A stretch of DNA of 64,000 bases, taken from NCBI GenBank assembly GCA_016719925.1, contig JADJYC010000004.1, forward strand, positions 56,697-120,696. Reading direction: 5' to 3'. The notes under the pieces are model-generated. The model did not search any database and was not told the DNA's origin. It worked only from the letters and a program-made list of their open reading frames with translations. The translations under genes were made by a program, and so were the position numbers. The stretch's first letter is position 1, and each line of letters starts with the position of its first letter. This DNA is from Crocinitomicaceae bacterium. Lineage in GTDB: Bacteria > Bacteroidota > Bacteroidia > Flavobacteriales_D > Crocinitomicaceae. Shown here in pieces: positions 4,253 to 64,000 of the stretch.

Positions 4253-4278
4253 CTTTCATTTTGTTAAATAAATTATTT

Positions 4279-39948: not shown

Positions 39949-39990
39949 AAAAAATTACCTGATTATTTAACATTCTTCGGCAAGTTCAGG

Positions 39991-45829: not shown

Positions 45830-46026
45830 TAGTTTTTTACTGCGAATAAACAAATAGCAAACTCTGGTTATCTTCAATTCCCGCTGATTAACGCGATTTG
45901 TTCCGCGGATAAAAGCGCTGATCGACTTAGAAAAATCAAATATCGAAATTACAAATCGCAAATTACTTTATTAAATACAAGAGTACTCCGGTTTTGGAAT
46001 TTGTAATTTTGAAATTGGAATTTTTC

Positions 46027-47166: not shown

Positions 47167-47403
47167 TCAGACTGACTCCACCGATTTTACATCCGGCATC
47201 GCATTTCTGACAGCCTCTTCAATTCCGGCTTTTAGGGTCATTACACTCATGGAACAGGTTTCACAGGCACCCAGCAAACGCACTTTAACCACATTGTCTT
47301 TGGTTACTTCCACCAACTCAACATCACCGCCGTCTTTTTGCAAAAACGGGCGAATTGACTGAAGTGCATCTTCTATTTTTTGTGAACGATCCATAGGCCT
47401 CAA
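47167..47403 (-). CDS. NifU-like (Nfu) Fe-S cluster assembly domain protein
   Basis: ...IRPFLQKDGGDVELVEV..VVKVRLLGACETCSMSVMTLKAGIEEAV... carries the CxxC motif of the NifU C-terminal domain. Confidence 0.7.
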   Translation of the reverse strand: MRPMDRSQKIEDALQSIRPFLQKDGGDVELVEVTKDNVVKVRLLGACETCSMSVMTLKAGIEEAVRNAMPDVKSVESV

Positions 47404-47705
47404 TAATAGGGCGGTACAAAGATAATGATTCTCAGATGAAAACGATCCCGCCTTTTTGGATTATTTCATTTATCAAAAATATATTCAGAAAATCAAGCAT
47501 GCGAACCAATTACAGTTAATTTACTGTAAGTACAATCAATTAACGCAGTCAATGCTACGCCTGTGCTTCTGGCAAAAAATGATCCCGCCTAATAAAAGAA
47601 AAACCGTAAGGAAGAAATAATTTGAATTGCTCATAAAATCTTGTATATTGGCATAACATTTAACTCATTATCATCAACTTATGAACCTCGTTTTTACCCC
47701 CCATT

Positions 47706-48839
47706 TTGCTTTTAAGCAGATGCAAATCAATTATTCTTGGAATTTTATTTCTGACTTCATTTTCAGTTTTTTCTCAAAACCCAACAGTTATAAATGACTC
47801 TTTGGTAGTGAATCAACGGCTATATGCAAAAGAAAAATTGATTGTTGACTTAGAAGCAAAGTTTAAACAGGACATCAAAGTGCAGGGAAGCGCTAGAATC
47901 AATACAGATTTGAGAGTAGATGGGGAACTTCGTGTAGACGGTTTAGCAAAATTCATGAGCAATGTTAAAATGGAAGGTCTGACTTCCTTACCATTTGTTG
48001 ATTCAACAATAAAAGTTGTTATTATTCAACCCAACGGTCAATTAAAAACTGTAGGAATAGGAGTATTAGGTGATGGAATTTATGAATTTGTTCCATGCAT
48101 GCCGGGTGACGTTCCGAATCCTCATTGGTCAAGTGGATTAAACAAAATATATAATGCATGTGATCCTGTAAGAGTGGGTATTGGAACCACAACACCTGAT
48201 CACAAACTCCATGTTGTGGGAGTAAACTATGCCCAAAAATTTTTAGGAGGTAACGTTGGTGCAACAGCTACCGCATTGCTTAATCTCTACTGTCAGAATA
48301 CGTCTCAAGATTTGATGCATGTGGGAATTAAAGTGGGCGGACTTGCTCAGGAAATGCGTTTCATTATCAAAAATGATGGTGACATTACTATCTACAATGA
48401 AGGTGCTGATCCGACTATTACTTTAAACAACGGAACCGGACATGCTCTGGTAATTAATTCAAATGCCGGTTCAAAAATTTTGCAACTGGAAGATAACGGC
48501 ATGTTGCGTGCGCGCGAAATAAAAGTGGATGAGGATAACTGGCCAGATTATGTTTTTAATGATGATTATAAACTAATGTCTCTGGAAGATCTGAGAGCAT
48601 TTATCATGCACAATAAACATTTACCCAATATTCCCTCTTCTACAGAAGTTCACAACGCTGGACTGAATATTGGACAAATTCAAACACTTCAAATGGAAAA
48701 GATTGAAGAGCTTACACTCTACACTCTGGAATTAAACGAAGAAATTAACTCCCTGAAAGCAGAAAATGAATTGTTGAAGACCGAATTAAATACTCTTAAG
48801 GAGAGTTTTAACGAATTGAAATTGCTTTTAACGAAGTAG
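47706..48839 (+). CDS. Tail-fiber-domain protein with a C-terminal Peptidase_S74-like intramolecular chaperone domain and coiled coil
   Basis: Signal peptide. C-terminal ...REIKVDEDNWPDYVFNDDYKLMSLEDLRAFIMHNKHLPNIPSSTEVHNAGLNIGQIQTLQMEKIEELTLYTLELNEEINSLKAENELLK matches the endosialidase/tail-spike chaperone domain. Confidence 0.55.
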   Translation: MLLSRCKSIILGILFLTSFSVFSQNPTVINDSLVVNQRLYAKEKLIVDLEAKFKQDIKVQGSARINTDLRVDGELRVDGLAKFMSNVKMEGLTSLPFVDSTIKVVIIQPNGQLKTVGIGVLGDGIYEFVPCMPGDVPNPHWSSGLNKIYNACDPVRVGIGTTTPDHKLHVVGVNYAQKFLGGNVGATATALLNLYCQNTSQDLMHVGIKVGGLAQEMRFIIKNDGDITIYNEGADPTITLNNGTGHALVINSNAGSKILQLEDNGMLRAREIKVDEDNWPDYVFNDDYKLMSLEDLRAFIMHNKHLPNIPSSTEVHNAGLNIGQIQTLQMEKIEELTLYTLELNEEINSLKAENELLKTELNTLKESFNELKLLLTK

Positions 48840-48846
48840 TTGTGAT

Positions 48847-51713
48847 ATGAAAAGGTATAGCATAATTTTAGTTTTTTTAGGCAGTTTAAATTTAATAGGT
48901 CAGGAAGACACCATGGTGTTTACCGATGAAATTGAAGCAGGAAATTACATTTTTGGACAACTTGATCCTCAATATTACGATTATGCATTATTGAATAGAT
49001 CCATGTCTACTTTCCCATTATTGTATGAGCAGATTGCAGGTAATTATAATCATGTCATGACTACTGATGATTGGCTTCTGATTTATTCTGATTTAGCATT
49101 GTCTTGTTATGACACAACATTGATTCCTACTATAACGGCGATGGCTCAGAGAATCTATGATTTTTATACGTTTCATGATTATCATTACACGGATCTTATC
49201 CAGCCGTTTGGGTTGATACTTCACAATACAAGTATGATTGATACACTTAATTTTTCAAATGGAAACATACAGGTTATCGATGGGCGCATGACTTCATTTA
49301 CTGAAGAAAATTCGCTTTACACAAAAAAACTTATAAAAAGCGCAACTTTAATGGAGTTTTATCCGGATAATGGATATACTCAGGGCAAACTAAAATACGA
49401 CCCTTCTTTTATTGTTGTGAGCGAAGATATTACTTTACTAAATTTAGAAATAGATATTAATGATGGCGGGGGTTACCAGAATTTCGGTATGTCAAACCCT
49501 TTGATTACTTATGATCGATCAAGAGACTCAGTTGTTGCGAATGCGGTTATTTCCTATGAATTAAATGATTCGATTTATCAAGACACTATTAGTTTCTATT
49601 TAACCACTTCAAGTAATATTAAATCTAGCAGATCTGCCGATCACTGGGATTATAGTTTTGAGTTTGATGCATTACCCGGCAACGATTTAACTTACGAAGT
49701 TGGGATTAAGTACGGTTGTGGAAACGGAAATCTCATTAGAAGACCGATAATAATTTCTTGCGCTTATCGCCCTGCAATACAACCGTTTTCAATGGACAAA
49801 TACTGGGAACAATTTAATGTGGGAGGGCTGTTTGATAGCTTCGTAGCTTTGGGATATGATGTAATATTTGTGAAAGACAAACCTGGTTATCGTTCGATAG
49901 AAGACGCAGGAACAGAATTGGGAGAGTTTATCAAAGAAATTAATAATGTAAAAAAAATAAATTATCCAAACGAAGATTGGGAGACTGTTGTAATGGGATA
50001 TAGTATGGGAGGCCAAAAAGCCCGCTATGCTCTGCTTAAATTGGAAAAGCAACACATGGAGAATGGGGAGCCTCATCATCATACAAAACTTTATATACCT
50101 TTTGATTCACCGCATCATAGCGCAAATGTTCCCTTATTAACCCAAGCCACATACAAAACTTTTAAATTGACAAATGCTTTGGCAGCGGTTGCAAATAACA
50201 GTCTCGTTGATGCAGCGTCAAGAGATCAGGGAGCATACAGCATTTATAGCAGTACTATCTTTGCACCACCCACAGTCGTAGGTACTTTAGATCTGTTGCC
50301 TTTACCTGAACCAGATGCAGTGAACTATCAATATGAAGTAAATAATAATTTCCATCATCAGTTTACGAATCTGATGGATACCAGAATTTCTTTTCCAGCA
50401 TTCACAAGAAATATTGCAGTTTCAACAGGTAGTTATAAAGATGATTATGAAGTTGTCTGGGGACTGAGCCCGGGAATTGAAATGTTTACTCAACATGCAC
50501 CGGGATATTTTTGGGTTCCTTTTTTAGGGTTTACGAACGGTTTTGTTAATCGAAAATTGTGGTCGTCTGAATACTCTACTACGACCCCTCAACCTAGCTT
50601 TAGTAGAAAGGATTTATATTTTGTTCTTGTGGTATTCCCGTTTTATATTCAAAGGGCATATAATTTCATTGAACATCAGGAATATGATTTATCGCAGGGA
50701 GGGTATAAAACTATTTTTTACAGTGGTCTTACAGGAGGTGCAACAACTATACTTAAATCAACTGCATATGGATTAGGGAATTTACAATATGACAAGGAAG
50801 TTTGTTTTTTGCCACTTGTATCTGCACTTGCTATTAATCCCGATATCTGGGGAAATAATCACTTATATTACAATTTACAGGAGGAGGGCTTAATGTACCA
50901 AAGTCAAGAAGATTTTGATCAGGATAATAAATCAGATATATATGGATATCCTCACATTGCCCATAATACTAATCACTTTGACATTACTCCTTTTGAAGCT
51001 GTATATGCTGATGATTTTAATTGGGATCATATTGTCATGAATGAAACTTTGGAAGATTATTTGAATGGTGATCAAACATATTTTGATAATCTGCGGGTTT
51101 TTTAAATGATGAAGTGGAAGGTTGGGTCGTTCCTCTTCAAAATAAAGTCATTGGTCAAAACCATGTTCAAAATCCAAGCTTTGAATATAAAGCCTGGTAC
51201 AAATCAAGGTACCAGATTTTTATTGGAAATAACGTAACGCCAAAAACAGATCCTGGTGATTATATAATTGAAAATTCTGGAAATATTACGGTTTATGCTG
51301 GTGTAGAAATTGTAATTAAAGATGGCTTTCATGCCAAACCTGGGAGCACATTTCATGCGTTTATTCAAGAACCAAGTGATTGTTATGTTTCTGGAGGTAA
51401 GTCAGCGTCTACAATTTCTGAAAATAGTGGTGGCACAGAAAAAATACTGCTGGCTGATGAAGGCGTTATCAGTGATGAGAAAAATAATGTCATCTTGATA
51501 CCAAATCCAAATACTGGCAACTTTATTTTTTCAATAGAAGAGACTCATCCAAACGGTCAACTGTATGTTTATGGTCTTGACGGTAAAATTTATTATGAGC
51601 AATCAATCTATCAAAGTAAAACTGCTTTGGAATTGAGTTTAGCAAAAGGCGTCTATTTGGTTGTATTTATCTCCGGTCAGAAAAGAGAAACGGCAAAACT
51701 AGTTATTCAATAA
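48847..51713 (+). CDS. Large secreted alpha/beta-hydrolase-like (lipase-like GYSMGG) protein with a GFHAK domain and T9SS CTD, frameshifted at the T6 run 51098-51103
   Basis: Signal peptide MKRYSIILVFLGSLNLIGQ. A nucleophile-elbow-like VVMGYSMGGQKARYAL is present. ORF 48847..51105 ends ...NLRVF*, and T7 would continue LNDEVEGWVVPLQNK... into ORF 51114..51713, which ends in the T9SS CTD ...GVYLVVFISGQKRETAKLVIQ. Confidence 0.5.
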
Positions 51714-51724
51714 ATTTCCTGAAA

Positions 51725-52345
51725 ATGAAACAAATATTAATATTGGTGTTATTCACTGTGGTTGTTTTATCATGCAAAAAATCAACTCTGGTTGTGATTC
51801 AAGCAGAAGATTATGTTACAGGTGAAGGAAGTGCGTATGCGGGTATGGAGTATGCGGTTTCAGAAGCGTGGATTCCATTTTTTGAAACAAAATCAAAAAT
51901 TGTAGCCACAGGATATCTCGATGAAAATGGTTATGCATCATTTGACTTAAAAATGAAAAATAATCGTAAATATATATTAGGAGTTAGTGAGCCGGAAAAT
52001 ATTTGTTATGGAGGTCTAATGCAGCATTATTTGGAGCATGAGAAAAACAATCATATTGCATTTAAATACTCTACTTGCTCATATCTGAAAATTATTGTTA
52101 ACAATATAAATTGCGTTGATGAAAATGATGAAATTAAATATACTCGGACTTGGTTAACAGGTGATGAAATAGGTACTGAAGTAATAAAACACGGGTGTTA
52201 CTCTTTTGAAGGAAGTTATTTCGAGCTGCCTGCGGGTGATTATCGATATGATTGGGTAGTTACCAAAAGTGGAATGACATCGAACTATAGCCAGAATTTC
52301 ATCTTATTAAGTGGTGATAGCCTTGTTTTTCAGATTGATTATTAA
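51725..52345 (+). CDS. Hypothetical lipoprotein (paralog of 53624..54283)
   Basis: Lipobox VVLSC. The C-terminal pattern NCVDENDE...HGCYSF...PAGDYRY... is shared with the ORF at 53624. Confidence 0.4.
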   Translation: MKQILILVLFTVVVLSCKKSTLVVIQAEDYVTGEGSAYAGMEYAVSEAWIPFFETKSKIVATGYLDENGYASFDLKMKNNRKYILGVSEPENICYGGLMQHYLEHEKNNHIAFKYSTCSYLKIIVNNINCVDENDEIKYTRTWLTGDEIGTEVIKHGCYSFEGSYFELPAGDYRYDWVVTKSGMTSNYSQNFILLSGDSLVFQIDY

Positions 52346-52377
52346 GTATAAAGGTCTATAAAGTTAAAAAGCGATTA

Positions 52378-52938
52378 ATGTTGTATAATAAAATAAAAGA
52401 TACGTTGTTTATTAAAATAATTTATATTTCAATCATTGCTGTTTCTTGCAATAAATCGGATGATAATGGCAATTCTTCAGATGAATGTGCACCAAACAGT
52501 GGAAGTTTCAATGTGGATGTGAACGGGAATAATTATGATATGATTGTGAATTCTGAAACCCAATTCACTATTCTTTATAATTATTCAGGAACCAATGAAA
52601 CTGAATTTATTATTGATTCCAAAGATCAAAACGGAAATCCAATGAATATTGAGTTAGCTTTCCCTGGTCAGTTCAACAACGGCACAACTGCTTATTCGAA
52701 TGATGTATTAGATTTTGACTTTTTTACTATTGATGTTGATACATTTAATTTATATGTATCGTCTGTTACTTTTGAGGTTTCGGAGAGTGATTTCAATTCT
52801 CAGGATGGAACATATAACCCTGTAATTTCTTCTTTTACAGGTACAGCACATTCATTTCCATGGACAAATGGGCAACCGCCTCTAAATACGTTGAGTATAA
52901 GCGGGTCATTTTGCCTGAACGGAATTATATTGCCGTAA
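52378..52938 (+). CDS. Hypothetical lipoprotein, possibly the N-terminal part of the downstream T9SS-CTD ORF
   Basis: Lipobox IAVSC. The downstream ORF 52977..53627 has no signal peptide of its own. Confidence 0.35.
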   Translation: MLYNKIKDTLFIKIIYISIIAVSCNKSDDNGNSSDECAPNSGSFNVDVNGNNYDMIVNSETQFTILYNYSGTNETEFIIDSKDQNGNPMNIELAFPGQFNNGTTAYSNDVLDFDFFTIDVDTFNLYVSSVTFEVSESDFNSQDGTYNPVISSFTGTAHSFPWTNGQPPLNTLSISGSFCLNGIILP

Positions 52939-52976
52939 ATCTTTGGATACAGTTTTAACATCTCCGGTTTATCCGG

Positions 52977-53627
52977 ATGAGGACGAAATGGGTATACAAG
53001 TTTATGCAACAAAAAACATTTATCATGGATGAATTAGAACCTACGGTAGTGTATTTACAGAATCAACGAGTAGGTTGGAATACAAATGGAGTAGAATACA
53101 AAGCGCAGTATGAAGCTTCTTACGCAATTTTTTTGGGTGAAAACGTGAGTCCAAAAACTGATGTTGCACCTTATGAAATATGGAACAACGGCAGCATTTT
53201 TTGTATGGCTGAAACACACATAACGCTTTCCAAAGGTTTTCATGCCAAAGCGGGATCTGAATTTCACGCGCAAATTGGATATGTAGGCTATAGTCCATGC
53301 ACAGATGGTAAATCTTCCGAACAAGTAACTACTGTTGTAAATGACACTTATAAACCGGAAATCTCATCCGATGAAACTGTTATCGAAAGTGATAATAAAA
53401 ATTACATCATTGCTCCAAACCCAAGCATTGGAGAACAAAGTTTCCAGATTTTAAGTTCTAATAGTGAAACATTGACTATTAGACTTTTTGATTTATCTGG
53501 TAAACAAATTTACTGGGGCCGAATCCAAGCAAACACTAATTTATCTCCAGACCTACAATCAGGAGTTTATATTGTAATAATTGACAACGGAACATCAGAA
53601 CAAATTGAAAAACTTGTGATCCAATGA
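52977..53627 (+). CDS. GFHAK-domain protein with a T9SS C-terminal sorting domain
   Basis: VGWNTNGVEYKAQYEASYAIFLGENVSPKTDVAPYEIWNNGSIFCMAETHITLSKGFHAKAGSEFHA is paralogous to residues of ORF 51114 (YKAWYKSRYQIFIGNNVTPKTD...GFHAKPGSTFHA). It ends with the CTD ...GVYIVIIDNGTSEQIEKLVIQ. Confidence 0.45.
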   Translation: MRTKWVYKFMQQKTFIMDELEPTVVYLQNQRVGWNTNGVEYKAQYEASYAIFLGENVSPKTDVAPYEIWNNGSIFCMAETHITLSKGFHAKAGSEFHAQIGYVGYSPCTDGKSSEQVTTVVNDTYKPEISSDETVIESDNKNYIIAPNPSIGEQSFQILSSNSETLTIRLFDLSGKQIYWGRIQANTNLSPDLQSGVYIVIIDNGTSEQIEKLVIQ

Positions 53628-54283
53628 AAATACAAATGTTAGCAAGTTTGATAGCAATATTTTTATTCTTTAACTGCAATAAGGAAGAAAGTGAAATGTG
53701 GACAGAAGTTCATGTTTCTGCTAAAAATGCTCATACCGGTGAACCATTATCAGACATTTACATAGGTTTGATTGAGTGGGACAATCGGTTATTGTTTGAT
53801 TCAAAAGGCAAATCAATTTCAGAGGGCTTTACCGATACAAATGGCGAATACCATTTCGAATGGAAAGCCAGGCGTGGAAACGGATTCACTTATGATTACG
53901 TTGCACAGGCCAATCCGGAAAAATACTATCAGGAAAATTTTCAACAAATTGATTTTTTAAAAAAGGGAGAAATTCACCATTATAATATTACGTTACTGCC
54001 TTATGCTGGACTGTATTATCATATCCAAAACGAAAACTGTTTTGATGGAACAGACAGTATGTGGTTTAAGCGTGAACATGATTTAATTGATTATCAGAGT
54101 GAGGACTGGAATCCATTGCCGCGTGTAGGATGTTATAGTTTGTTTTCTGATATACCTTACGATGTCCCAATGGGTAATTATACATTTACTATGAAAATCA
54201 AACGCAATGGAATAATTACCTATTTAGAAAAAGAAATTACTCTGATAGAAGGACAAGTAGACACAATTGAGTTGTTTTATTAA
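53624..54283 (+). CDS. Hypothetical lipoprotein (paralog of 51725..52345)
   Basis: Lipobox FLFFNC. It shares ...ENCFDGTD...VGCYSLF...PMGNYTF with the ORF at 51725. Confidence 0.4.
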   Translation: MKIQMLASLIAIFLFFNCNKEESEMWTEVHVSAKNAHTGEPLSDIYIGLIEWDNRLLFDSKGKSISEGFTDTNGEYHFEWKARRGNGFTYDYVAQANPEKYYQENFQQIDFLKKGEIHHYNITLLPYAGLYYHIQNENCFDGTDSMWFKREHDLIDYQSEDWNPLPRVGCYSLFSDIPYDVPMGNYTFTMKIKRNGIITYLEKEITLIEGQVDTIELFY

Positions 54284-54306
54284 TAAAATGAAATCGTTTT
54301 AAGTTT

Positions 54307-54846
54307 TTGTTTTGTAACTCTAATAATTTTATAATTTGCATGTTACATGTGTTTTCTAAAAGTCTCATCCTTTTAATTCTTTTTTATATAGGTACTAATG
54401 TCTGTACAGGTCAAAAAAAATCCAAAATGCAGTTGAAGTTAACAAGCACAGAGTTAAATCAGCCTCATTTTTTTAAGGAGCATCGAAAGATATCCGTTTG
54501 GATTAATGATTCCGTCTCTTATAGAGGAATTTTCACAATTCCTGACTCAACACATGTTTCCTTAGCAGATACTAGCATTTTTATTGATGATATCAAAGGA
54601 ATAAAAGGTAAAAATACCAGAAGAGCAGCAGGAGCTCCAGCTGTGATTTTGGCACCTGTCTTCAGTGGTCTTATAGTTGAGTATATTCTTTTAATTTACG
54701 ATAATTCTTTTTTTTCTTACTTTCCTTTGCCTACTTTTTGCGGGATTGGAGGAACGTTAGTTGGCACAATAACGGTAGTACTTTGTATGGATAACAAGAC
54801 ATATCTTAACTTAGAAAATTCAGATTTTCGAATTATCGAGCGATGA
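54307..54846 (+). CDS. Hypothetical membrane protein (179 aa)
   Basis: N-terminal and C-terminal hydrophobic segments. No recognisable domain. Confidence 0.3.
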   Translation: MFCNSNNFIICMLHVFSKSLILLILFYIGTNVCTGQKKSKMQLKLTSTELNQPHFFKEHRKISVWINDSVSYRGIFTIPDSTHVSLADTSIFIDDIKGIKGKNTRRAAGAPAVILAPVFSGLIVEYILLIYDNSFFSYFPLPTFCGIGGTLVGTITVVLCMDNKTYLNLENSDFRIIER

Positions 54847-55010
54847 ATTCCTGATTCCGAAGATGAATTTTTTTTCGTTACGAGTAACATTGGATCATGG
54901 AAAGAAAAATGGAAGTGAGTTAAACAGTATATGCTTTAAATTTTCAAATTCTGGGTCAGTTATTATAAACTAAGAGTAATATGAATGAATCAAACATCAA
55001 TTAAATGGAT

Positions 55011-56059
55011 TTACTTCAAATTATCAATAACCTTTTTCACCATCTCTTCAAACACCTGAGCAGACAACGTATTTTCCTGCAAAACAGCTGGCCGCCCAAC
55101 ATCACCTGCCTCGCGAACGCTTTGTATCAAAGGAACCTGAGCAAGTAAAGGTACATTCATCGATTCAGCCAAATTCTTTGCACCGTCTTTTCCAAAAATG
55201 AAGTACTTATTGTTTGGTAACTCTTCCGGCGTAAACCAGGCCATGTTTTCTACAATTCCTAAAACAGGTACTTTCAACGAATCCATACGGAACATATTGA
55301 TTCCTTTTCGTGCATCTGCCAAAGCAACTTCTTGCGGCGTACTGACAATAACAACTCCTGTTAACGGAACATTTTGCACCAATGTCAAATGCACATCACC
55401 AGTTCCGGGAGGTAAATCCACAATCATAAAATCGAGATCACCCCAATCCGCATCTTTGAACATTTGATTTAATGCTTTGGTTGCCATAGGGCCTCGCCAT
55501 ACAACCGCTTGTTCAGGATCAGCAAAAAATCCAATGGAAAGAATTTTTACTCCGTATGATTCGATTGGTTTGATCAAAGTTTTTCCATCTTTTCTACACC
55601 AACCGGTCTTTGTCCAACCAAATCAAACATGGTTGGCATGGATGGTCCGTAAATATCCGCATCTACCAATCCAACTTTATAACCAAGTTTAGCCAGACCT
55701 GCGGCCAGATTTGCAGTGATGGTAGATTTTCCAACACCACCTTTTCCGGATGCAACGGCAATAATGTGTTTTACATTGGAAAGAATTGCACGCACTTCAG
55801 GTTCTTTATCTTTTGGAAGCGGTACCAATGAAATTTCTGCTTCAATGTCTTTTCCGAACGCACGTTCAAGCTGAAACTGCAATGCTTCTTCCATCCGCTT
55901 TTTTGCATGCATGGCAGGATTGTACACCTTGACACTGAATGAAATTTTATTACCGTCAATTTTTATATCCGAAACGAGATCAAGTGTGATGATGTCTTTT
56001 TTCAGATCAGGCTCGATGACTTTTCTGAGCGCTTCGATTAGGTTTTCTTGTGTGATCAT
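55011..56059 (-). CDS. apbC: Mrp/NBP35 family Fe-S cluster carrier ATPase (ApbC), frameshifted at the T4 run 55590-55593
   Basis: N-terminal DUF59-like segment, P-loop [19 protein letters not shown], ...VGVEK in one frame, then [22 protein letters not shown]...DLPPGTGD in the other. Confidence 0.75.
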
Positions 56060-56063: not shown

Positions 56064-56250
56064 TAGGGCTAAGGGCAAAGGACTAAGGACAAAGGGATTC
56101 GTTTTGTTAGCTTAATGCTTGCCAATTATTTTTTAGTTGTTTTTTTGGAGAACTAAGGGCAGGGGGCTAAGGACTAAGGGGAACTTTTAATTTTAAAAAA
56201 CTTTTCCATTGACCTTTGCCCCCTGTCCTTAGCCCTTTGACCTATTTAGA
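56064..56250. repeat. Heptamer-repeat element: forward arrays (56064-56098, 56150-56188) and inverted array (56212-56245)
   Basis: GGGCTAAGGGCAAAGGACTAAGGACAAAGGG...AACTAAGGGCAGGGGGCTAAGGACTAAGGGG...CCTTTGCCCCCTGTCCTTAGCCCTTT. The first ~85 bp are homologous to 57018-57102. Confidence 0.7.
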
Positions 56251-57017: not shown

Positions 57018-57102
57018 TTAAGGGCTAAGGGCAGAGGGCTAAGGACAAAGGGATTGACTTTGATGGCTTAACACTTGCCGAATATTTCTTTAATTGTTTT
57101 TT
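57018..57102. repeat. Heptamer-repeat element (homolog of 56064-56148)
   Basis: GGGCTAAGGGCAGAGGGCTAAGGACAAAGGGATTGACTTTGATGGCTTAACACTTGCCGAATATTTCTTTAATTGTTTTTTAG. Confidence 0.7.
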
Positions 57103-57503
57103 AGTTCAAGTTTTGAAATCATTGACTTTATCATTTTCTCAACTTGTAAAATTTGATTTTTTAGACTTGTTATATCATTCTCATTAACATAATTTAGTCT
57201 TACACAAATTTCCAGTTGAGTATTTAGCTCACATATAGATCCATAAGAAATTCTTAGAAATTGAATGTAACTTCCAAGATATTTTCTACCCCAACCTTCT
57301 GCTATATTTGAAGGAACAGAAACTGCTGCCCGACGGATTTGATTTGTGATACCAAACTTTTCATCTGAAGGGAAATCCTTAGAAACTTCATAAACATGAA
57401 CAACCAAATCCATCGCCTTCTGCCAAACAATTAAATCACGATACGAATTTATTTTTCCGTATTCTACTGTTCCCTCTTCAAATATCCAATTCTCTAATTC
57501 CAT
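57090..57503 (-). CDS. Four-helix-bundle protein (TIGR02436-like, 23S rRNA intervening-sequence protein family)
   Basis: ...SYRDLIVWQKAMDLVVHVYEVSKDFPSDEKFGITNQIRRAAVSVPSNIAEGWGR... is the family signature. It is flanked by heptamer arrays on both sides. Confidence 0.7.
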   Translation of the reverse strand: MELENWIFEEGTVEYGKINSYRDLIVWQKAMDLVVHVYEVSKDFPSDEKFGITNQIRRAAVSVPSNIAEGWGRKYLGSYIQFLRISYGSICELNTQLEICVRLNYVNENDITSLKNQILQVEKMIKSMISKLELKNN

Positions 57504-57524
57504 TTCCGTATTATAAATTAATTA

Positions 57525-57570
57525 CAACCCCTTAGTCCTCTGTCCTTAGCCCTTTGCCCTAACTCTGATT
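57525..57570. repeat. Heptamer array (reverse orientation)
   Basis: CCCCTTAGTCCTCTGTCCTTAGCCCTTTGCCCTAA. Confidence 0.65.
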
Positions 57571-59607
57571 TAGTTTTTTTACCATAGTTAAAATTGTTGC
57601 AATAGCAACCGTCTCCCCAGTCTCATCATACACATCTACTAAAAACTTTACGATGCCTTTTGCAATGTCTGCTTCATTTCTTTTTTCCTGATCTACTTTT
57701 TCTTTTACTGTAAATCTCACGCCAATTGTTGCTCCGGGATAAACAGGTTTTGTAAAGCGCGCTTCATCTATTCCATAATTCAAAAGTACCGGCCCTTTTT
57801 TAGGATCAACAAATAAACCTGCTGCTTTTGAAAGAATAAAATAACCGTGCGCAACTCGTCTTTCAAAAATAGTTCCGTCCAGTGAAGTGGCATCCATGTG
57901 TGCGTAAAAATTATCTCCGCTTACATTTGCAAAATTGACTATGTCTGCATCACTTACGGTGTGTTTGTGAGTGAAAACGGTTTCACCAATTTCCAATTCT
58001 TCAAAATGTTTTCTGAAGACATGTGGAACTGCTTCCGGCAGATCTGCGCCTACCTGAAACTGTTCTGTGATTTTTGTAATTGTTTGCGGATGTCCTTGTA
58101 TGGCGGTGCGCTGTAAATAATGCATCACGCCTCTTTTTCCTCCCATCTCTTCTCCCCCACCAGCACGGCCAGGACCACCATGCGTAAGCATTGGCATAGG
58201 CGAACCGTGTCCTGTACTTTCATCTGCACAACGTCTGTTCAATACATGAATTCTGCCATGTGATGTAGCTGCTCCCAAAACATATTCTTTTGCAATTTCA
58301 TCATCCGCTGTAATGATTGAAGACACCAAAGATCCTTTACCCATTTTGGCAATTTCAATTGCATCTTCTAAATTTTTATACGGCATGATGGTTGACACCG
58401 GGCCAAAACATTCAATGTTGTGTACACCTTGATTTTTAAACGGATCATCATTCCTGAAAACAATCGTTGGAAAAAATGCACCTTTATTTTTATCTGCGCT
58501 CAGCACATCAAAATTATCCATGTCACCAATCACAATTTTCTGCTCTTTCATCAACAACTCAACATTGTGACGAACGCGTTCAACTTGTAATTTTGTAGCA
58601 AGTGATCCCATTCTTACATTGGCATCTGCCGGATCTCCGATTGTGTTTTTTGCCAGACGTGATGCAAGAGCTTTTTGCACATCATCGATTAAGTTTTCAG
58701 GAACAACAATTCTTCTGACGGAAGTACATTTTTGTCCTGCCTTTACGGTAATTTCTCTCTGAACTTCTTTAATGAAAATATCAAATTCCGGTGTGCCCGG
58801 CACAGCGTCTTTACCAAGAATTGCAGCATTTAATGAATCTGCTTCCAGGTTAAATGAAACAGAATTATCTACTATGTTGGGTAAACTTTTTAATTTTTTT
58901 CCGGTTGATGCGGATCCTGTAAATGTTACAACATCATCCTGAGAAACGTGATCTAAAATTCCTCTTCCCAAACCGCAAACTAACTGAAGAGATCCTTCAG
59001 GAATAATTCCGGAAGCCACTATGTCTCTCACCATTTCTTCAGTCAGAAAACAAGTAAATTCAGATGGTTTAACAATTGCCGGTACGCCTGCAAAAAAGTT
59101 CACCGCAATTTTTTCAAGCATTCCCCAAATTGGAAAATTAAATGCGTTGATGTGTATAGCAACTCCTTGTTTCGGTACCATAATGTGGTGACCGATAAAA
59201 GACCCCCCTTTGGAAAGAGGAATAGCAGTACCATCTACATAATAAGGCAAATCCGGAAACTGTCTTCTTAATGAAGCATTGGCAAATAAATTGCCGCAAC
59301 CTCCTTCAATATCAATCCATGAATCTAATCTTGTTGCACCTGTCCATGCACTCACCTCATAATACTTCTTTTTATTTTTCATTAAGAAGAGAGCGAGTTC
59401 TTTCAGCATCAAACCGCGCTGCTGAAACGTCATTTTACGCAATGCTTTTCCTCCGGTTGATTTTGCGTAATTCATCATTGCGGCGTAATCCAATCCGGCT
59501 GAAGAGCAGGTTCCGATTTTTTCACCGGTAATAGCGTTGAATAATTCGGTTTCTATTCCGTCACCGCTGATCCATTTTCCAAGTGCATAATTTTGGTAGA
59601 CTTTCAT
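57559..59607 (-). CDS. paaZ: PaaZ-like bifunctional protein: N-terminal aldehyde dehydrogenase domain fused to a C-terminal MaoC-like (R)-hydratase domain
   Basis: ALDH-like N-terminus ...[30 protein letters not shown].... The C-terminus ...[22 protein letters not shown]...[13 protein letters not shown]... is a MaoC hot-dog fold. 682 aa. Confidence 0.7.
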
Positions 59608-59635
59608 TTGTTGTCAGGTTTGAGGGATAAAGTTA

Positions 59636-59860
59636 TGTTATTTTTTAGGACTAAGGGCTAAGGACTAAGGGCTAAGGGCTATTGACTTCGGACTTAGGGC
59701 TGAATGGTGAGGACTTAGGCAAATGAAAAATTTGTTTTGGATAATGATCCTTCTGAGATATAATTTATTCTCGAAACTCATTCCTTGAGCAAAAAACCTT
59801 GGCTAATTCAACTATAAATCCCTTGTCCTCTGCCCTTAGCCCTTTGTCCTATAATAATCT
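59636..59860. repeat. Heptamer-array inverted pair (forward 59636-59712, reverse 59815-59860)
   Basis: AGGACTAAGGGCTAAGGACTAAGGGCTAAGGGCTATTGACTTCGGACTTAGGGCTGA ... ATCCCTTGTCCTCTGCCCTTAGCCCTTTGTCCTAT. Confidence 0.7.
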
Positions 59861-59925
59861 AATCGGACTATTTTTGTTTTTGATTAAGAAACCCCTTATC
59901 TTTGCCCCAGTTCTTAATTTTATTT

Positions 59926-60032
59926 ACTTATAAAGAAAGGTGGAGGGACCGGCCCTGCGAAACCTTGGCAACCTGTTCCTTTCAGAGAATAAGGTGCCAA
60001 TTCCTTCCTGTTTATTATCGGGATAATATAAG
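59926..60032 (+). ncRNA. SAM-I (S-box) riboswitch in the 5' leader of the metH N-terminal module
   Basis: CTTATAAAGAAAGGTGGAGGGACCGGCCCTGCGAAACCTTGGCAACC...AAGGTGCCAATTCC...GGGATAATATAAG matches the SAM-I consensus (GGUGGAGGGAC.GGCCC..GAAACC..GGCAACC...AAGGUGC.AAUUCC) with a closing P1 CTTATA/TATAAG. Confidence 0.75.
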
Positions 60033-60070
60033 CGTTAATCAGTTTTCCGGTCTCGCCTCTGTAGTTGTTT

Positions 60071-61099
60071 ATGAACGATATCAGAGAAATATTAAAACAT
60101 CGCATTTTGGTGCTGGACGGCGCTATGGGCACTATGATTCAGCGGTATAAACTGGAAGAAGCAGATTTCAGAAAAGGCTGGTTTGAAAATCATCCAAAAC
60201 CGCTGAAAGGAAACAATGATTTATTGGTTTTGACCAGACCGGATATCATCAAAGAAATTCATCGTGAATATTTAGAAGCCGGTGCTGACATTCTGGAAAC
60301 AAACACATTCAGCGGAACTACTATTGCGCAAGCTGATTATGGCCTGGAAAAATATGCATACGATATTAATTTTCACGGTGCAAAAATTGCCAAAGAAGTT
60401 TGTCAAGAATTCACAAAAAAAAATCCGGACAAATTAAGATTTGTTGCCGGATCAATCGGACCGACCAACGTGACACTTTCTATTTCTCCAAATGTCAATG
60501 ATCCGGGATTCAGAAGTACAACTTTTGATAAAATGGTTGTGGCTTATGAAGAACAGGTGAAAGGATTGATCGATGGAGGAGCTGATTTGCTTTTAATAGA
60601 AACAATTTTTGATACACTCAATGCAAAGGCAGCACTTTTTGCAACTCAAAATGTACAGGAAAAACTGGGAACAAATCTTCCCATCATGATTTCAGGAACA
60701 ATAACGGATGCCAGCGGACGAACGCTATCTGGTCAAACTGCTGAAGCATTTTTAGTTTCAGTTCAGCATGCAGATTTACTTTCTGTTGGATTGAATTGTG
60801 CTTTAGGCGCAAGTACGCTGAGACCATATCTTCAGGTATTGAAAAAAAATGCACCGTTCGCTATTTCAGCGCATCCAAATGCCGGACTTCCAAATGAAAT
60901 GGGTCAATATGATGAGACTCCGGAAATGATGGCCGCACAAATTAAAACATTCCTGGATGAAGGTTTGGTAAATATTGTTGGAGGATGCTGCGGAACAACA
61001 CCGGCGCATATTAAGGCGATTGCGGAGCTGGTTGAAAAGAGGGCAAAGGGCAGAGGACAAAGGGCAGAGGACAAAGGAAATGTAGTAACGGGTTCTTGA
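60071..61099 (+). CDS. metH: Homocysteine S-methyltransferase module of cobalamin-dependent methionine synthase (MetH N-terminal domain as a separate ORF)
   Basis: [24 protein letters not shown]...[21 protein letters not shown] are Hcy-binding domain motifs. The last ~20 codons ([18 protein letters not shown]) are encoded by a heptamer repeat array. Confidence 0.8.
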
Positions 61100-61212
61100 A
61101 AAAAATAAATACTAATTTGAAAATTCAACTGGAAAAATAATGCAACGTCTTGAAAATAAAAATAACTCATACGGACAAAACCCTCTGTCCTTAGCCCTTA
61201 GACCTCTGTCCT
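61037..61212. repeat. Heptamer-array inverted pair (forward 61037-61082, reverse 61176-61212)
   Basis: AGGGCAAAGGGCAGAGGACAAAGGGCAGAGGACAAAGG ... CCCTCTGTCCTTAGCCCTTAGACCTCTGTCC. The forward arm overlaps the 3' end of the metH N-terminal ORF. Confidence 0.7.
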
Positions 61213-61217
61213 AAAAA

Positions 61218-61959
61218 ATGGCATCACATTTCGGTAAAATATTAGGCGGTGGTTTAGGCTGGGCTTTCGGTGGTCCGCTTGGTGCTTTAATTGGCGTAGC
61301 TATTGGCGGAATTCTTGACGTTGGAAATTCTGCGGGACAAACACGAAGAACTATTATTGGCAATCAACCTCATCAGACACAAGCAGGTGATTTTGGTGCA
61401 GCATTGATTGCGCTTTCTGCGGTGGTCATGAAAGCAGATGGAAAAATTCTGAAATCAGAAATTCAGTTTGTACGTGATTTTTTTACCAGACAATTTGGTG
61501 TTCCCCGCACCAATGAATACATCAAATTACTTCAGGAAATTTTAAAACAGGATATTCCGGTAAGAGAAATTTGTTTTCAGATTCGTCACAACATGGAGCA
61601 TCCGCTGCGACTTGAATTGCTTCGTTATCTTTTGAAGTTTCAAAAGCCGATGGTCATGTTGACAAATCAGAAATTCATATTCTGCATCAACTTTCGGACT
61701 ACTTGGGAATATCAGAAAAGATTTTCTCTCGCTGAAAAACATGTATTATAAAGATGTCGATTCAGCCTATAAAATTTTAGAAATAAACACAAAGGCAACT
61801 GACGAAGAAGTAAAAAAAGCATACCGAAAAATGGCAGTCAAATATCACCCTGATAAATTAAGTTCATTAGGGCCGGAATTTGAAAAAAACGGAAAAGAAA
61901 AATTTCAGAAAGTACAGGAGGCGTATGATAAGATTAAGAAAGAACGTGGATTTAAATGA
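61218..61959 (+). CDS. DjlA-like co-chaperone: Gly-rich TM segment plus TerB-like domain plus C-terminal J-domain (HPD), with two frameshifts (T4 61630-61633, A4 61716-61719)
   Basis: MASHFGKILGGGLGWAFGGPLGALIGVAIGGIL. TerB-like ...ALIALSAVVMKADGKILKSEIQFVRDFF.... Corrected reading ...RYLFEVSKADGHVDKSEIHILHQLSDYLGISEKDFLSLKNMYYKD.... J-domain DSAYKILEINTKATDEEVKKAYRKMAVKYHPDK. Confidence 0.55.
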
Positions 61960-62288
61960 GGACAGAGGGCAGAGGGCAAAAGGCAAAGGGCAGAGGGCAG
62001 AGGCAAAGGGCAGAGGAAAAAGCCAAAAGGTTTTAAAAAAAATGATCGAACTGAAATACTAAAATAAATAGATTGAAAATACAACAACCTTTAATATTAT
62101 AATTAACCAAAACATTAGTTAAATACTGATATGGCCAAAACAAAAACCCTTTATCCTTGGTCCTCTGTCCCTAGCCCTCAAAAAATTGAAAGAATATTTA
62201 AGAAACAGAACTAGTAAAAAAATTGACGAGTGCCGGGGAATCAAACCAAATCCCTTTGTCCTTAGCCCTCTGTCCTTAGCCCTATAAA
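61957..62288. repeat. Heptamer arrays (forward 61957-62022; reverse 62148-62182 and 62240-62288)
   Basis: GAGGACAGAGGGCAGAGGGCAAAAGGCAAAGGGCAGAGGGCAGAGGCAAAGGGCAGAGG ... CCCTTTATCCTTGGTCCTCTGTCCCTAGCCCTC ... CCCTTTGTCCTTAGCCCTCTGTCCTTAGCCCTAT immediately precedes the ATG at 62290. Confidence 0.7.
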
Positions 62289-62289
62289 A

Positions 62290-64000
62290 ATGAACATACA
62301 TCCTGACTACCCCGGAAAATACCAATACAAATGGAACCAATTACCCAACATGAAGTTGAGCGGACTGGAACCTTTGGAACTAACACCTGAATCCAATTTT
62401 GTAAATGTTGGTGAGCGGACCAATGTTGCTGGCTCAGCAAAATTTTTGAAACACATCAAAGAAGGAGAGTTTGAAGCTGCATTGCAAATTGCACGTGATC
62501 AGGTTGAAGGCGGTGCGCAAATCATTGACGTGAACATGGATGATGGTTTGATAGAAGGAAAAGAAGCGATGGTGAAATTTTTAAACCTCATTGCATCAGA
62601 ACCGGACATTGCGCGTGTACCCATCATGATAGATTCATCCAAATGGGAAATTATTGAAGAAGGATTGAAATGTGTTCAGGGAAAATGCGTGGTAAATTCA
62701 ATCTCATTAAAAGAAGGAGAAGAAAATTCATTCATCAGGCAAAAAAATAAAACAATACGGCGCTGCGGTAATAGTGATGGCGTTTGATGAAAACGGTCAG
62801 GCTGATACCTATGAAAAAAGAATTCAGATGTGTGAACGTTCATACCGGATTCTGGTTGACAAAGTAAAATTTCCGCCACAGGATATCATTTTTGATCCAA
62901 ACGTTTTTCCGGTTGCAACAGGTATGGAAGAACATAAATTGAACGCACTTGATTTTTTCAGAGCAACAAGATGGATCAGGGAAAATTTACCCGGTGCACA
63001 TGTGAGCGGAGGAATTTCAAACGTCTCCTTTTCATTCAGGGGAAATAATCCCGTGCGTGAAGCTATGCACTCTGCGTTTTTATATCACGCTATTGAAAAC
63101 GGAATGGATATGGGAATTGTAAACCCAACCATGCTGGAGGTATATGATGAGATTCCAAAAGAATTGCTGGAGCGTGTTGAAGACGTTTTATTAAACACAA
63201 GAGAAGATGCAACCGACAGGTTACTGACATTTGCAGAATCATTTGTTGGCGGCGCAAAAGAAAAGAAAGCAGAGCTTGAATGGAGAAAAGAAAATTTACA
63301 GGACCGTATCACCTATTCTTTAGTTAAGGGAATTACTGAGTTCATTGATCAGGATGTGGAAGAAGCACGATTGTCTGTCAAACAACCTATCGAAGTAATT
63401 GAAGGACATCTGATGAACGGAATGAATGTAGTGGGAGATTTATTCGGATCGGGGGAAAAATGTTTTTACCACAGGTTGTAAAATCTGCCCGCGTTATGAA
63501 AAAGGCAGTTGCTTATTTATTACCATACATTGAAGCATCCAAAACTGAAACAAAAGCCAAAGGAAAAGTGTTGATGGCCACCGTAAAAGGGGATGTGCAC
63601 GACATCGGAAAAAATATTGTAGGCGTTGTTTTAGGCTGCAATAATTATGAGATTATTGATTTGGGCGTGATGGTTCCGGCTGAAAAAATTCTGGAAGTTG
63701 CCAAAAAAGAAAAAGTTGATGTGATTGGTTTGAGTGGTTTAATTACACCTTCATTGGATGAAATGGTACACGTTGCAAAAGAAATGGAACGTGAGGGATT
63801 TACCATTCCTCTTTTGATTGGAGGAGCCACAACTTCTAAAGTTCACACCGCTGTAAAAATAGAGCAGAATTACAAAAAGGGACAAACCGTTTACGTACTG
63901 GATGCCTCACGGTCAGTAACTGTTGTTTCAAGTTTGTTATCTGATGACAAAGAAAAATTCATCAGAGAAGTTCAGGAAGATTTTTCACGCGTGAGAGAAA
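62290..64000 (+). CDS. metH: Cobalamin-dependent methionine synthase, pterin-binding plus B12-binding modules (3' end outside the window), with two frameshifts (A7 62741-62747, A5 63456-63460)
   Basis: ...[30 protein letters not shown]...IIDVNMD... is the pterin domain. ...[15 protein letters not shown]... follows in the next frame. ...[12 protein letters not shown], then [26 protein letters not shown]...[11 protein letters not shown] (B12 DxHxxG) in a third frame. Confidence 0.8.

What the first reader, a model, noticed from the sequence alone, without database searches (positions are those of the whole stretch)
60071..62290. metH modules separated by a repeat-flanked cassette encoding a DjlA-like TerB/J-domain protein
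The Hcy-methyltransferase module (60071-61099) and the pterin/B12 modules (62290 onward) of methionine synthase are separated by 1.2 kb. The break lies exactly in the inter-domain linker: ...AIAELVEKR on one side, [29 protein letters not shown] on the other. The gap holds an inverted heptamer-array pair, a TerB plus J-domain gene (61218-61959), then three more arrays ending 2 nt before the downstream ATG. The upstream ORF acquires a repeat-encoded tail ([18 protein letters not shown]). Either a native split-metH pair gained an inserted cassette in its spacer, or a once-continuous metH was split by it. Either way the repeat arrays behave as an insertion hotspot or vehicle.
Basis: partly seen in the sequence, partly recalled or inferred. 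Interest (0 to 1): 0.7.

Follow-up and report, generated by a model that had tools for sequence, protein, structure and literature searches.

The report
Native split metH operon, repeat-colonised spacers
This is an ordinary, anciently two-gene vitamin-B12 methionine synthase operon with a long-resident DjlA-like chaperone gene between the halves. The heptamer repeats are separate stem-loop elements that later filled the gaps between the genes, and they did not bring the chaperone gene in.

Summary
A homocysteine-binding (Hcy) metH gene (60071-61099), a TerB/J-domain gene (61218-61959) and the pterin/B12 metH gene (62290 onward) are separated by spacers full of inverted AGGRCNN heptamer arrays (20 matches, 0 expected).

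- **The split is native.** 78 of 80 related Bacteroidota loci encode the Hcy module as its own gene.
- **djlA is an old resident.** The order Hcy-djlA-PT recurs in at least eight other contigs (DjlA identity 68-99.6%). L087 has it compact and without arrays (0 and 12 nt around djlA). L001 and L002 have unrelated spacers.
- **One control point.** A SAM riboswitch (59925-60034) and the only Bacteroidetes-type promoter match precede the Hcy gene.
- **The frameshifts are probably errors.** All five window frameshifts covered by a 99.4%-identical contig are homopolymer miscalls.
- **The arrays are a separate element.** They form long stems (z -3.4 and -6.6). The same arms flank a PF05635 (23S-rRNA-intervening-sequence protein, IVP) gene at 57020-57560.
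- **The association is general.** In 58 independent metagenomic PF05635 loci, 66% have flanking inverted short-period arrays (1% in the control).

The arrays are therefore IVS-like stem-loop elements colonising intergenic spacers, one of which overwrote the Hcy protein's C-terminus.

The parts
59873..59904 (+). Bacteroidetes-type promoter-like element (TTTG ... TATCTTTG), the only such match in 59600-62400
   Evidence: Pattern scan. It is conserved upstream of the riboswitch in L001 and L002. It is a consensus match only.
59925..60034 (+). SAM-I riboswitch leader of the operon
   Evidence: Rfam RF00162, 82 bits against a gathering score of 44.4, full length.
60071..61099 (+). Hcy-binding subunit of the split MetH. 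The conserved core ends near 61036. The last 18 codons are encoded by and just beyond the array.
   Evidence: PF02574 338 bits. NCBIfam metH positions 10-334. Aligns to 4ccz residues 8-328. The native tail KNYQLVEK is kept in L001, L002 and L084 and replaced here.
61040..61077 (+). 5' arm of the spacer-1 stem-loop (AGGGCAA/AGGACAA heptamers x5.4)
   Evidence: Pairs with 61181-61212 in the RNA fold (-47.9 kcal/mol, z -3.35).
61181..61212 (+). 3' arm of the spacer-1 stem-loop. It ends 5 nt (AAAAA) before the djlA ATG.
61218..61959 (+). DjlA-like membrane J-protein gene (TerB + J domain, HPD motif). It carries two 1-base homopolymer deletions in the window (about 61629 and 61715).
   Evidence: The reconstructed 247-aa protein gives TerB 73.5 bits and DnaJ 58.7 bits. 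NCBIfam DjlA gives 128.8 bits, below the cut-off of 162. The gene is intact at 99.6% identity in L081.
61959..62016 (+). Long 5' arm of the spacer-2 structure. It starts at the last base of the djlA stop codon.
   Evidence: Pairs with both downstream arms (fold -93.9 kcal/mol, z -6.64). It is 20 nt shorter in L081.
62147..62179 (+). Inner 3' arm of spacer 2
   Evidence: pair I18.
62252..62283 (+). Outer 3' arm of spacer 2. It ends 6 nt before the ATG at 62290.
   Evidence: pair I10.
62290..64000 (+). Pterin-binding / B12-cap / B12-binding subunit of the split MetH. It is cut by the window end and has three frameshifts in the window.
   Evidence: PF00809, PF02607 and PF02310. The DxHxxG motif (GDVHDIGKN) is visible in the translation. 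Orthologues are 901-904 aa and include PF02965.
57020..57560 (-). Complete IVS-like cassette: a PF05635 four-helix-bundle gene (57090-57503) between inverted AGGGCTA-type arrays
   Evidence: PF05635 138 bits, TIGR02436 130 bits. Arms are 92% complementary (pairs I7 and I8). Fold z -5.3. The cassette is absent from the orthologous spacer of L082.
59643..59854 (.). Gene-less stem-loop of the same arm family, between the paaZ-like gene and the metH promoter
   Evidence: pairs I3 and I4.
56065..56243 (.). Remnant of a second PF05635 cassette end (56065-56155) plus a gene-less stem-loop (56156-56243)
   Evidence: 56097-56155 aligns to the interior of the cassette (score 46 against a null maximum of 31). 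Arms (pairs I6, I11, I12).

Best explanation
Window 59.9-64.0 kb is the methionine synthase operon of a Crocinitomicaceae-like bacterium (order Flavobacteriales).

Shown:
- Cobalamin-dependent MetH is natively made from two genes. One encodes an Hcy-binding subunit. The other encodes a subunit with pterin, B12-cap and B12 domains, plus an activation domain in the orthologues.
- The operon lies behind a SAM-I riboswitch.
- The DjlA-like J-protein gene between the two metH genes is an old resident cistron, present across lineages whose DjlA is 68-96% identical.

Inferred by parsimony:
- The ancestral operon was compact: riboswitch-Hcy-djlA-queF-like-PT (PT = the pterin/B12 gene). The window's lineage lost queF. 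The Crocinitomix lineage lost djlA.

Shown by comparison with relatives:
- In this lineage the originally tiny spacers were filled by stem-loop elements whose two arms are inverted arrays of AGGRCNN heptamers.
- One of these elements overwrote the last 8 or so codons of the Hcy gene and gave it a repeat-encoded tail.
- The same arms enclose a PF05635 (23S rRNA intervening-sequence protein) gene 3 kb upstream. Such genes are generally embedded between inverted heptamer or octamer arrays.

Inferred, not shown:
- The elements behave as IVS-like selfish cassettes, with or without an ORF, that insert into or replace intergenic spacers.
- On the transcript they form stems of about 25-30 bp, which are plausible RNase III substrates. 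Cleavage would cut the polycistronic mRNA between cistrons.

The arrays did not carry djlA and did not split metH.
For: - Domains and riboswitch.
- Split is the rule: in 78 of 80 related loci the Hcy gene ends in a stop, mostly 1-12 nt before the PT gene.
- The order Hcy-djlA-PT recurs in L001, L002, L081, L082 and L083, L084 and L085.
- L087 has Hcy|djlA|queF|PT with 0 and 12 nt around djlA. L086 has Hcy-djlA-IVP-queF-PT.
- More distant DjlA homologues (57%) sit beside a rhomboid gene, not metH.
- Identities of Hcy, DjlA and PT across these loci.
- The spacers of the window, L001 and L002 are not alignable, although the flanking coding sequence is.
- L082 (about 85% nucleotide identity) carries a different arm family (AGGATTT/AGCTCTT) at three orthologous spacers, and its djlA|PT spacer keeps the same one-(+)-arm, two-(-)-arm layout.
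- Stems.
- No promoter-like or terminator-like site lies in the spacers.
- PF05635 association: window cassette. 7 of 10 IVP genes in the held loci, and 38 of 58 in an independent metagenome sample, have flanking inverted repeats above the 99th percentile of the null. Period-7 arrays occur at 50 per 100 kb against 2 per 100 kb.
- Frameshifts are errors: L081 (99.4% identical) has the extra base at all 5 sites it covers.
Against: - No transcript data exist, so co-transcription, RNase III cleavage and any effect of the stems are inferred.
- The loops of the two metH spacers show no detectable similarity to the PF05635 cassette interior or to each other. Their link to the cassette rests on the shared arm family alone.
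- L001 and L002 also have stem-loops, with other sequences, at the same spacers. A stem at these positions might therefore be selected rather than merely parasitic.
- The ancestral operon order is a parsimony argument from about 12 loci without a formal tree.
- The third PT frameshift (GG insertion at about 63450) lies outside L081 and is judged an error only by comparison with more distant relatives.
Confidence: 0.8

Rival explanations
1. One reading: djlA arrived as a repeat-flanked mobile cassette, with the heptamer arrays acting as its vehicle or as the insertion hotspot.
For: Arrays lie on both sides of djlA in the window. Arrays of the same family do flank a mobile-looking PF05635 gene. 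The Hcy|PT junction holds different genes in different lineages.
Against: Orthologous djlA occupies the same position with no arrays in L087 and L084, and with unrelated spacers in L001, L002 and L085. Each arm pair is complete within a single spacer and does not span djlA. DjlA identity falls in step with Hcy and PT identity, as expected for vertical descent.
Confidence: 0.04
2. A once-continuous metH was split by the insertion.
For: The break falls exactly in the inter-domain linker. Fused forms exist in L068 and L080.
Against: 78 of 80 relatives, spanning Flavobacteriales, Chitinophagales and Sphingobacteriales, already have two genes with 1-12 nt between them and no insert. About 20 loci have the Hcy gene with no PT gene within 6 kb.
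Confidence: 0.02
3. The locus is decaying. djlA and the pterin/B12 gene are pseudogenes and the repeats mark genome erosion.
For: There are five frameshifts in 2.8 kb of the window.
Against: All five window frameshifts covered by the 99.4%-identical contig L081 (including one in mrp) are single-base homopolymer length differences. The genes are intact there and in L082-L087. Elsewhere in the window other genes are broken in the same way, for example mrp at 55589.
Confidence: 0.05
4. The stem-loops are host-selected regulatory RNA structures rather than selfish elements. For example, they could act as processing or stability determinants that uncouple the three cistrons. Alternatively, they could be occlusion stems that upstream translation melts, coupling translation across the long spacers.
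For: A stem-loop occupies the same spacers in the window, L001, L002, L082 and L085 although the arm sequences differ. The 5' arm begins at or before the upstream stop, and in three of five relatives' spacers the 3' arm, as here, ends 5-6 nt before an A-rich start region. The Hcy ORF reads through its 5' arm in the window, L082 and L085.
Against: L087 and L084 function without such stems. Insertion into spacers of 0-12 nt would produce the same geometry automatically. The same arms occur between divergent and convergent genes and around a PF05635 gene.
Confidence: 0.25

Closest known systems
Split cobalamin-dependent methionine synthase (three-part MetH of Phaeobacter inhibens; Price et al. 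2018, PMC5764234)
   Same: The MetH modules (PF02574; PF00809; PF02607 + PF02310) are encoded by separate genes that work together.
   Different: Here there are two parts, not three, and the break is only at the Hcy|pterin linker. The classical PF02965 activation domain is retained in the orthologues. The two genes share one SAM-riboswitch operon with an unrelated J-protein gene between them.
23S rRNA intervening sequences with an S23p ORF (Coxiella burnetii, Leptospira; Warrier et al. 2016, PMC4990558)
   Same: An element of about 430-540 nt carries a PF05635 ORF between terminal inverted repeats that form a stem of about 28 bp. The Coxiella stem is cut by RNase III. The window cassette 57020-57560 has this architecture.
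   Different: It sits between protein-coding genes, not in helix 25 or 45 of 23S rRNA. Its arms are tandem heptamer arrays. Gene-less versions fill operon spacers. RNase III cleavage has not been tested here.
Intergenic heptamer direct repeats (TAACTGA repeats of Beggiatoaceae, Cyanobacteria and Bacteroidetes, MacGregor 2015, PMC4679880; cyanobacterial STRR, from memory)
   Same: Tandem 7-nt units that are almost all intergenic, often ending a few nt upstream of a start codon and sometimes overlapping the end of the upstream ORF. The function is unknown.
   Different: The unit sequence differs (AGGRCNN). Here the arrays come as inverted pairs that form stems, and they are tied to PF05635 genes. 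Neither feature is reported in the passages of that paper read here.
REP/BIME elements of enterobacteria (from memory)
   Same: Genome-specific palindromic repeats that populate intercistronic spacers and can stabilise upstream mRNA segments.
   Different: REP arms are not tandem heptamer arrays. REPs are linked to RAYT transposases, not to PF05635 genes. No RAYT was looked for here.
E. coli DjlA (membrane-anchored type III J-protein)
   Same: N-terminal glycine-rich hydrophobic segment, TerB-like middle domain and C-terminal J domain with HPD.
   Different: It scores below NCBI's DjlA equivalog cut-off (128.8 against 162). In this clade it is a cistron of the metH operon.

Membership tests
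Cobalamin-dependent methionine synthase MetH (split form) | Hcy-binding (S-methyltransferase) domain with the Zn-ligand cysteines | tested here: met
   PF02574 338 bits. NCBIfam metH model positions 10-334. The motifs GLNCALG and GGCCGTTP are visible in the translation.
Cobalamin-dependent methionine synthase MetH (split form) | Pterin-binding, B12-cap and B12-binding domains with the DxHxxG motif | tested here: met
   PF00809, PF02607 and PF02310. GDVHDIGKN is in the translation. Three frameshifts in the window had to be bridged.
Cobalamin-dependent methionine synthase MetH (split form) | AdoMet-dependent reactivation domain (PF02965) | not testable with these tools
   The window ends at 64000, before this domain. 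It is present in the orthologous 901-904 aa proteins of L082-L085 and L087.
Cobalamin-dependent methionine synthase MetH (split form) | The two polypeptides assemble into an active enzyme | not testable with these tools
   Inferred from conservation of the gene pair in 78 of 80 loci and from the precedent of the three-part MetH.
SAM-I riboswitch (RF00162) | Score above the Rfam gathering threshold over the full model, upstream of a Met/SAM gene | tested here: met
   82 bits against 44.4, model positions 1-108 of 108, ending 36 nt before the ATG.
DjlA co-chaperone | J domain with HPD, plus a TerB-like domain, plus an N-terminal membrane segment | tested here: met
   DnaJ 58.7 bits and TerB 73.5 bits. 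YHPDK is in the sequence. PF27507 DjlA_TM is recorded for the 99.6%-identical L081 protein.
DjlA co-chaperone | NCBIfam equivalog score (NF006948 cut-off 162 bits) | tested here: not met
   128.8 bits. It is therefore called DjlA-like.
23S rRNA intervening sequence (IVS) element | PF05635 ORF enclosed by terminal inverted repeats that form a long stem | tested here: met
   Window 57020-57560: PF05635 138 bits and arms 92% complementary. The metH-spacer elements have the stem but no ORF.
23S rRNA intervening sequence (IVS) element | Located in helix 25 or 45 of 23S rRNA | tested here: not met
   All copies lie between protein-coding genes. There is no rRNA in the window.
23S rRNA intervening sequence (IVS) element | Excised from the transcript by RNase III | not testable with these tools
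Intergenic heptamer repeats (TAACTGA / STRR type) | Tandem 7-nt units, intergenic, close to start codons | tested here: met
   Period 7. The arrays end 5-6 nt before the ATGs at 61218 and 62290.
Intergenic heptamer repeats (TAACTGA / STRR type) | The specific unit sequence (TAACTGA; STRR units) | tested here: not met
   The units are AGGGCAA, AGGACAG and AGGGCTA.
Mobile gene cassette carrying djlA | The gene and its flanking repeats move together and are absent from the orthologous site in relatives | tested here: not met
   djlA is present at the orthologous site in 8 other contigs without these repeats around it.

The most novel reading that the evidence does not exclude
PF05635 'four-helix-bundle / 23S rRNA IVS protein' genes may define a widespread and so far undescribed class of IVS-like cassette. 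Its termini would be inverted tandem arrays of lineage-specific 7-nt (sometimes 8-nt) units, always with the AG-rich array as the 5' arm. These cassettes, and gene-less derivatives that keep only the arms, would colonise and replace intergenic spacers, including spacers inside essential operons such as metH. They would be tolerated because the stem is removed or neutral at the RNA level. On this reading the unexplained intergenic heptamer repeats of Bacteroidota, and possibly the STRR and TAACTGA repeats of cyanobacteria and Beggiatoaceae, are footprints of the same system.
Probability: 0.4. Interest if true: 0.7.

Novelty: new variant of a known kind. Interest (0 to 1): 0.4.

Why it matters
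For the finding as stated, it matters little. The metH arrangement is a conserved native operon and not a gene-splitting event, and the apparent pseudogenes are sequencing errors.

Two by-products have more value.

1. A clade of Crocinitomicaceae keeps a DjlA-like J-protein, and ancestrally also a QueF-like protein, inside a SAM-riboswitch-controlled metH operon. This is an unexplained but stable association.
2. The heptamer arrays link two unexplained phenomena: intergenic heptamer repeats, and the orphan PF05635 protein family known from rRNA intervening sequences. The statistical association found here (66% against 1%, and a 25-fold excess of period-7 arrays) offers a testable entry point to what both are for.

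Tried and rejected
- **Fused ancestor.** Rejected, because 78 of 80 loci are split.
- **Homology of the spacers between the window, L001 and L002.** None was found beyond the coding ends.
- **Spacer loops as deletion derivatives of the PF05635 cassette.** Only 56097-56155 matches the cassette interior. The two metH-spacer loops do not match it or each other.
- **Known RNA families in the spacers.** None was found apart from the SAM riboswitch.
- **Sigma-70-type promoters and intrinsic terminators in the spacers.** Nothing was found above shuffles. A Bacteroidetes-type -33/-7 motif occurs only upstream of the riboswitch.
- **Orientation of the arms relative to the gene.** I considered using this as a test. 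An inverted repeat reads the same on both strands, so only the intrinsic asymmetry (5' arm AG-rich) is informative.
- **Literature on PF05635 plus heptamer repeats.** Four full-text searches covering these topics found no description of the association. The library is incomplete, so this is not proof of novelty.
- **Stop/start geometry of the arms as evidence for translational coupling.** Discounted, because insertion into spacers of 0-12 nt gives the same geometry.


Full report
**1. What is in the sequence**

- An ORF at 60071-61099 is a homocysteine S-methyltransferase domain (PF02574, 338 bits). It matches positions 10-334 of NCBI's full-length MetH model.
- An ORF starting at 62290 carries the pterin-binding, B12-cap and B12-binding domains. 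The DxHxxG motif is visible in its translation.
- Against human MetH (4ccz), the first ORF aligns to residues 8-328. Residue 20 of the second ORF aligns to residue 341. The break therefore falls in the 12-residue inter-domain linker.
- Between the two lies a TerB + J-domain gene at 61218-61959.
It is preceded by the only Bacteroidetes-type -33/-7 promoter match in 59600-62400.
- Neither spacer holds a terminator-like or promoter-like site, nor any known RNA family.

**2. The arrays are real**

Three consecutive RGGRCNN units occur 20 times in the window, against none in 100 shuffles. Tandem Repeats Finder reports period 7.

The arrays come as inverted pairs:

- Spacer 1: 61040-77 paired with 61181-212.
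- Spacer 2: 61959-62016 paired with both 62147-79 and 62252-83.

As RNA, spacer 1 folds at -47.9 kcal/mol (z -3.35). Spacer 2 folds at -93.9 kcal/mol (z -6.64). In both cases the arms form the stems.

The Hcy ORF runs through the first arm, which produces the tail [18 protein letters not shown].

An independent contig, L081 (GCA_020054605.1), is 99.4% identical over 8.7 kb. It has the same arrays, one of them 20 nt shorter. The arrays are therefore not an assembly artefact.

**3. The frameshifts**

In the window djlA is broken twice and the pterin/B12 gene three times.

- At every window frameshift that L081 covers (55589, 61629, 61715, 62722, 62740), L081 has one more base in a homopolymer and the gene is intact.
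- The remaining site, about 63450, has two extra G in a G-run relative to five relatives.

I read all of these as homopolymer sequencing errors and not as gene decay.

**4. The split is native**

A scan of one genome per species returned 80 loci encoding a relative of the Hcy protein (63-93% identity). They come from Crocinitomicaceae, other Flavobacteriales, Chitinophagales and Sphingobacteriales.

- In 78 of the 80 loci the Hcy gene ends in a stop codon. Only L068 and L080 are fused.
- Where the pterin/B12 gene follows, the gap is most often 1-12 nt.
- About 20 loci have no pterin/B12 gene within 6 kb.

Split MetH is a known kind of arrangement, for example the three-part enzyme of Phaeobacter (PMC5764234).

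**5. djlA is an old resident, not a repeat-borne cassette**

The order Hcy-djlA-PT (PT = the pterin/B12 gene) recurs in these contigs:

| Locus | DjlA identity to the window |
|---|---|
| L081 | 99.6% |
| L082, L083 | 96% |
| L001, L002 | 86%, 85% |
| L084 | 84% |
| L085 | 76% |

Two more distant loci show a fuller operon.

- L087 (DjlA 68%) is compact: Hcy and djlA abut (0 nt), djlA and a queF-like gene are 12 nt apart, and PT follows 124 nt after queF. It has no AGGRC or other tandem heptamer arrays.
- L086 (DjlA 71%) has Hcy-djlA-PF05635-queF-PT.
- Crocinitomix and Putridiphycobacter loci carry only the queF-like gene in the gap.

More distant DjlA homologues (57%) sit beside a rhomboid gene, away from metH.

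Hcy, DjlA and PT identities fall together across these loci. The parsimonious history is therefore an ancestral riboswitch-Hcy-djlA-queF-PT operon followed by differential loss.

**6. What the arrays are**

The spacers of the window, L001 and L002 share no alignable sequence, although the flanking codons align.

The native Hcy C-terminus (KNYQLVEK in L001, L002 and L084) is replaced by arm-encoded tails in the window, L082 and L085.

L001 and L002 have stem-loops of their own at these spacers, with different short-period arms (z -4.3 and -8.25).

L082 is about 85% identical to the window in coding DNA.

- It has AGGRC-type arms at two orthologous spacers.
- It has AGGATTT/AGCTCTT-type arms at three others.
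- Its djlA|PT spacer keeps the same layout of one (+) arm and two (-) arms, the last ending 6 nt before the ATG.

Whole spacers are therefore replaced, arms included.

Three kb upstream, the same AGGGCTA-type arms (92% complementary) enclose a 137-aa PF05635 / TIGR02436 gene at 57020-57560 (fold z -5.3). L082 has a gene-less stem-loop at that spacer. A remnant of a second such cassette lies at 56065-56155.

This is the architecture of the S23p-encoding intervening sequence of Coxiella 23S rRNA. That element is 428 nt, has a 28-bp terminal stem and is excised by RNase III (PMC4990558).

**7. The PF05635-heptamer link is general**

- In the loci already held, 7 of 10 PF05635 genes have flanking inverted repeats scoring 13 or more. 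A random-position null reaches that score in 1% of trials.
- An independent scan of metagenome contigs gave 80 PF05635 loci.
- Of the 58 with both flanks, 38 (66%) exceed the 99th percentile of a mismatched-flank null.
- The arms are tandem 7-nt or 8-nt units of many different sequences, such as AGGGACT, AGTAGCT, AGTGGTC, AGGATTC and AGGTAAC.
- Period-7 arrays of 3 or more copies occur at 50.4 per 100 kb in these loci, against 2.1 per 100 kb in the metH loci.
- Arrays upstream of the gene are AG-rich (299 AG against 41 CT). Arrays downstream are CT-rich (69 against 262).
- An inverted repeat reads alike on both strands. This means the 5' arm of the hairpin is always the AG-type array.

I found no paper describing this association. 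The closest is the report of unexplained intergenic TAACTGA heptamers in Beggiatoaceae, Cyanobacteria and Bacteroidetes (PMC4679880). Any relation to those repeats, or to cyanobacterial STRR repeats, is a lead from memory and was not tested.

**8. How it most likely works**

Shown:
- The gene content and the riboswitch.
- The conserved gene order.
- The stems.
- The replacement of spacers between relatives.

Inferred:
- One SAM-controlled transcript covers all three cistrons.
- The two MetH polypeptides assemble.
- The stem-loops are IVS-like selfish elements that entered spacers of 0-12 nt, which trivially explains why they abut stop and start codons.
- They may be cut by RNase III.

A rival reading is that the stems are selected for mRNA processing or translational coupling. 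I give it about 0.25, because stems recur at these spacers in five species, yet L084 and L087 do without them.

The metH-spacer loops have no similarity to the cassette interior. Their assignment to the same element family therefore rests on the arms only.

**9. Verdict**

The native split and the recurrent use of the junction hold. Splitting of metH and delivery of djlA by the repeats do not.
- The metH/djlA arrangement itself is ordinary.
- The heptamer-armed, PF05635-associated stem-loop elements are the more interesting result and deserve a genome-wide follow-up.

Noticed in passing
window 57020-57560; loci L090-L169: PF05635 (23S rRNA IVS protein) genes are generally flanked by inverted tandem arrays of 7-nt or 8-nt units. 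38 of 58 independent metagenome loci exceed the 99th percentile of the null. Period-7 arrays are 25-fold enriched. The 5' arm is always AG-rich.
   Followed up: partly
window 47396-55045: A 7.6 kb insertion between nifU and mrp relative to the related genome L082. It holds eight same-strand ORFs. Two have a T9SS C-terminal sorting domain and most of the others have no Pfam match.
   Followed up: partly
window 31405-31533: AGGAC-type arrays overlap the 5' end of ORF 30404-31489 (-). The pyrimidine strand of the array would encode a hydrophobic, signal-peptide-like N-terminus (MKSNKRNPFVLFPFRFVLCPLPIVLF...) for an endonuclease/exonuclease/phosphatase-family protein.
   Followed up: no
window 4278-4380, 39844-40010, 45931-46024, 33364-33701: Other short-period stem-loop or repeat families occur in the same window: a CACGGAGA octamer hairpin (87% complementary), a TTTGGAA heptamer hairpin, and a 155-nt tandem repeat (2.2 copies) that contains GTCTCCGTG motifs.
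   Followed up: no
L003, L004, L005, L008, L025, L027, L028, L035, L086, L087 (gap between Hcy and PT genes): A 144-150 aa QueF-like gene (TIGR03139, 82 bits, just below the cut-off) sits inside the metH operon in Crocinitomix, Putridiphycobacter and related genomes. The reason for a link between preQ0 reductase-like proteins and MetH is unknown.
   Followed up: partly
L004 7530-7628; L039 6990-7068; L042 6990-7040; L079 7028-7476: PF05635 cassettes with very long heptamer arrays (TAGCAAT x14, TGGCTAC x11) are inserted exactly between the Hcy and PT genes in unrelated Bacteroidota. L063 and L070 have a response-regulator gene there instead.
   Followed up: partly
window 55011-56059, 6236-8359, 35070-38178: Neighbouring overlapping ORF fragments suggest further homopolymer frameshift errors across the window. 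The mrp case at 55589 is confirmed against L081. The others were not checked.
   Followed up: partly
L048-L061 and other Chitinophagales-like loci: A 70-72%-identical Hcy-domain gene stands alone with no pterin/B12 gene within 6 kb. The partner gene is either unlinked there or the protein has another role.
   Followed up: no
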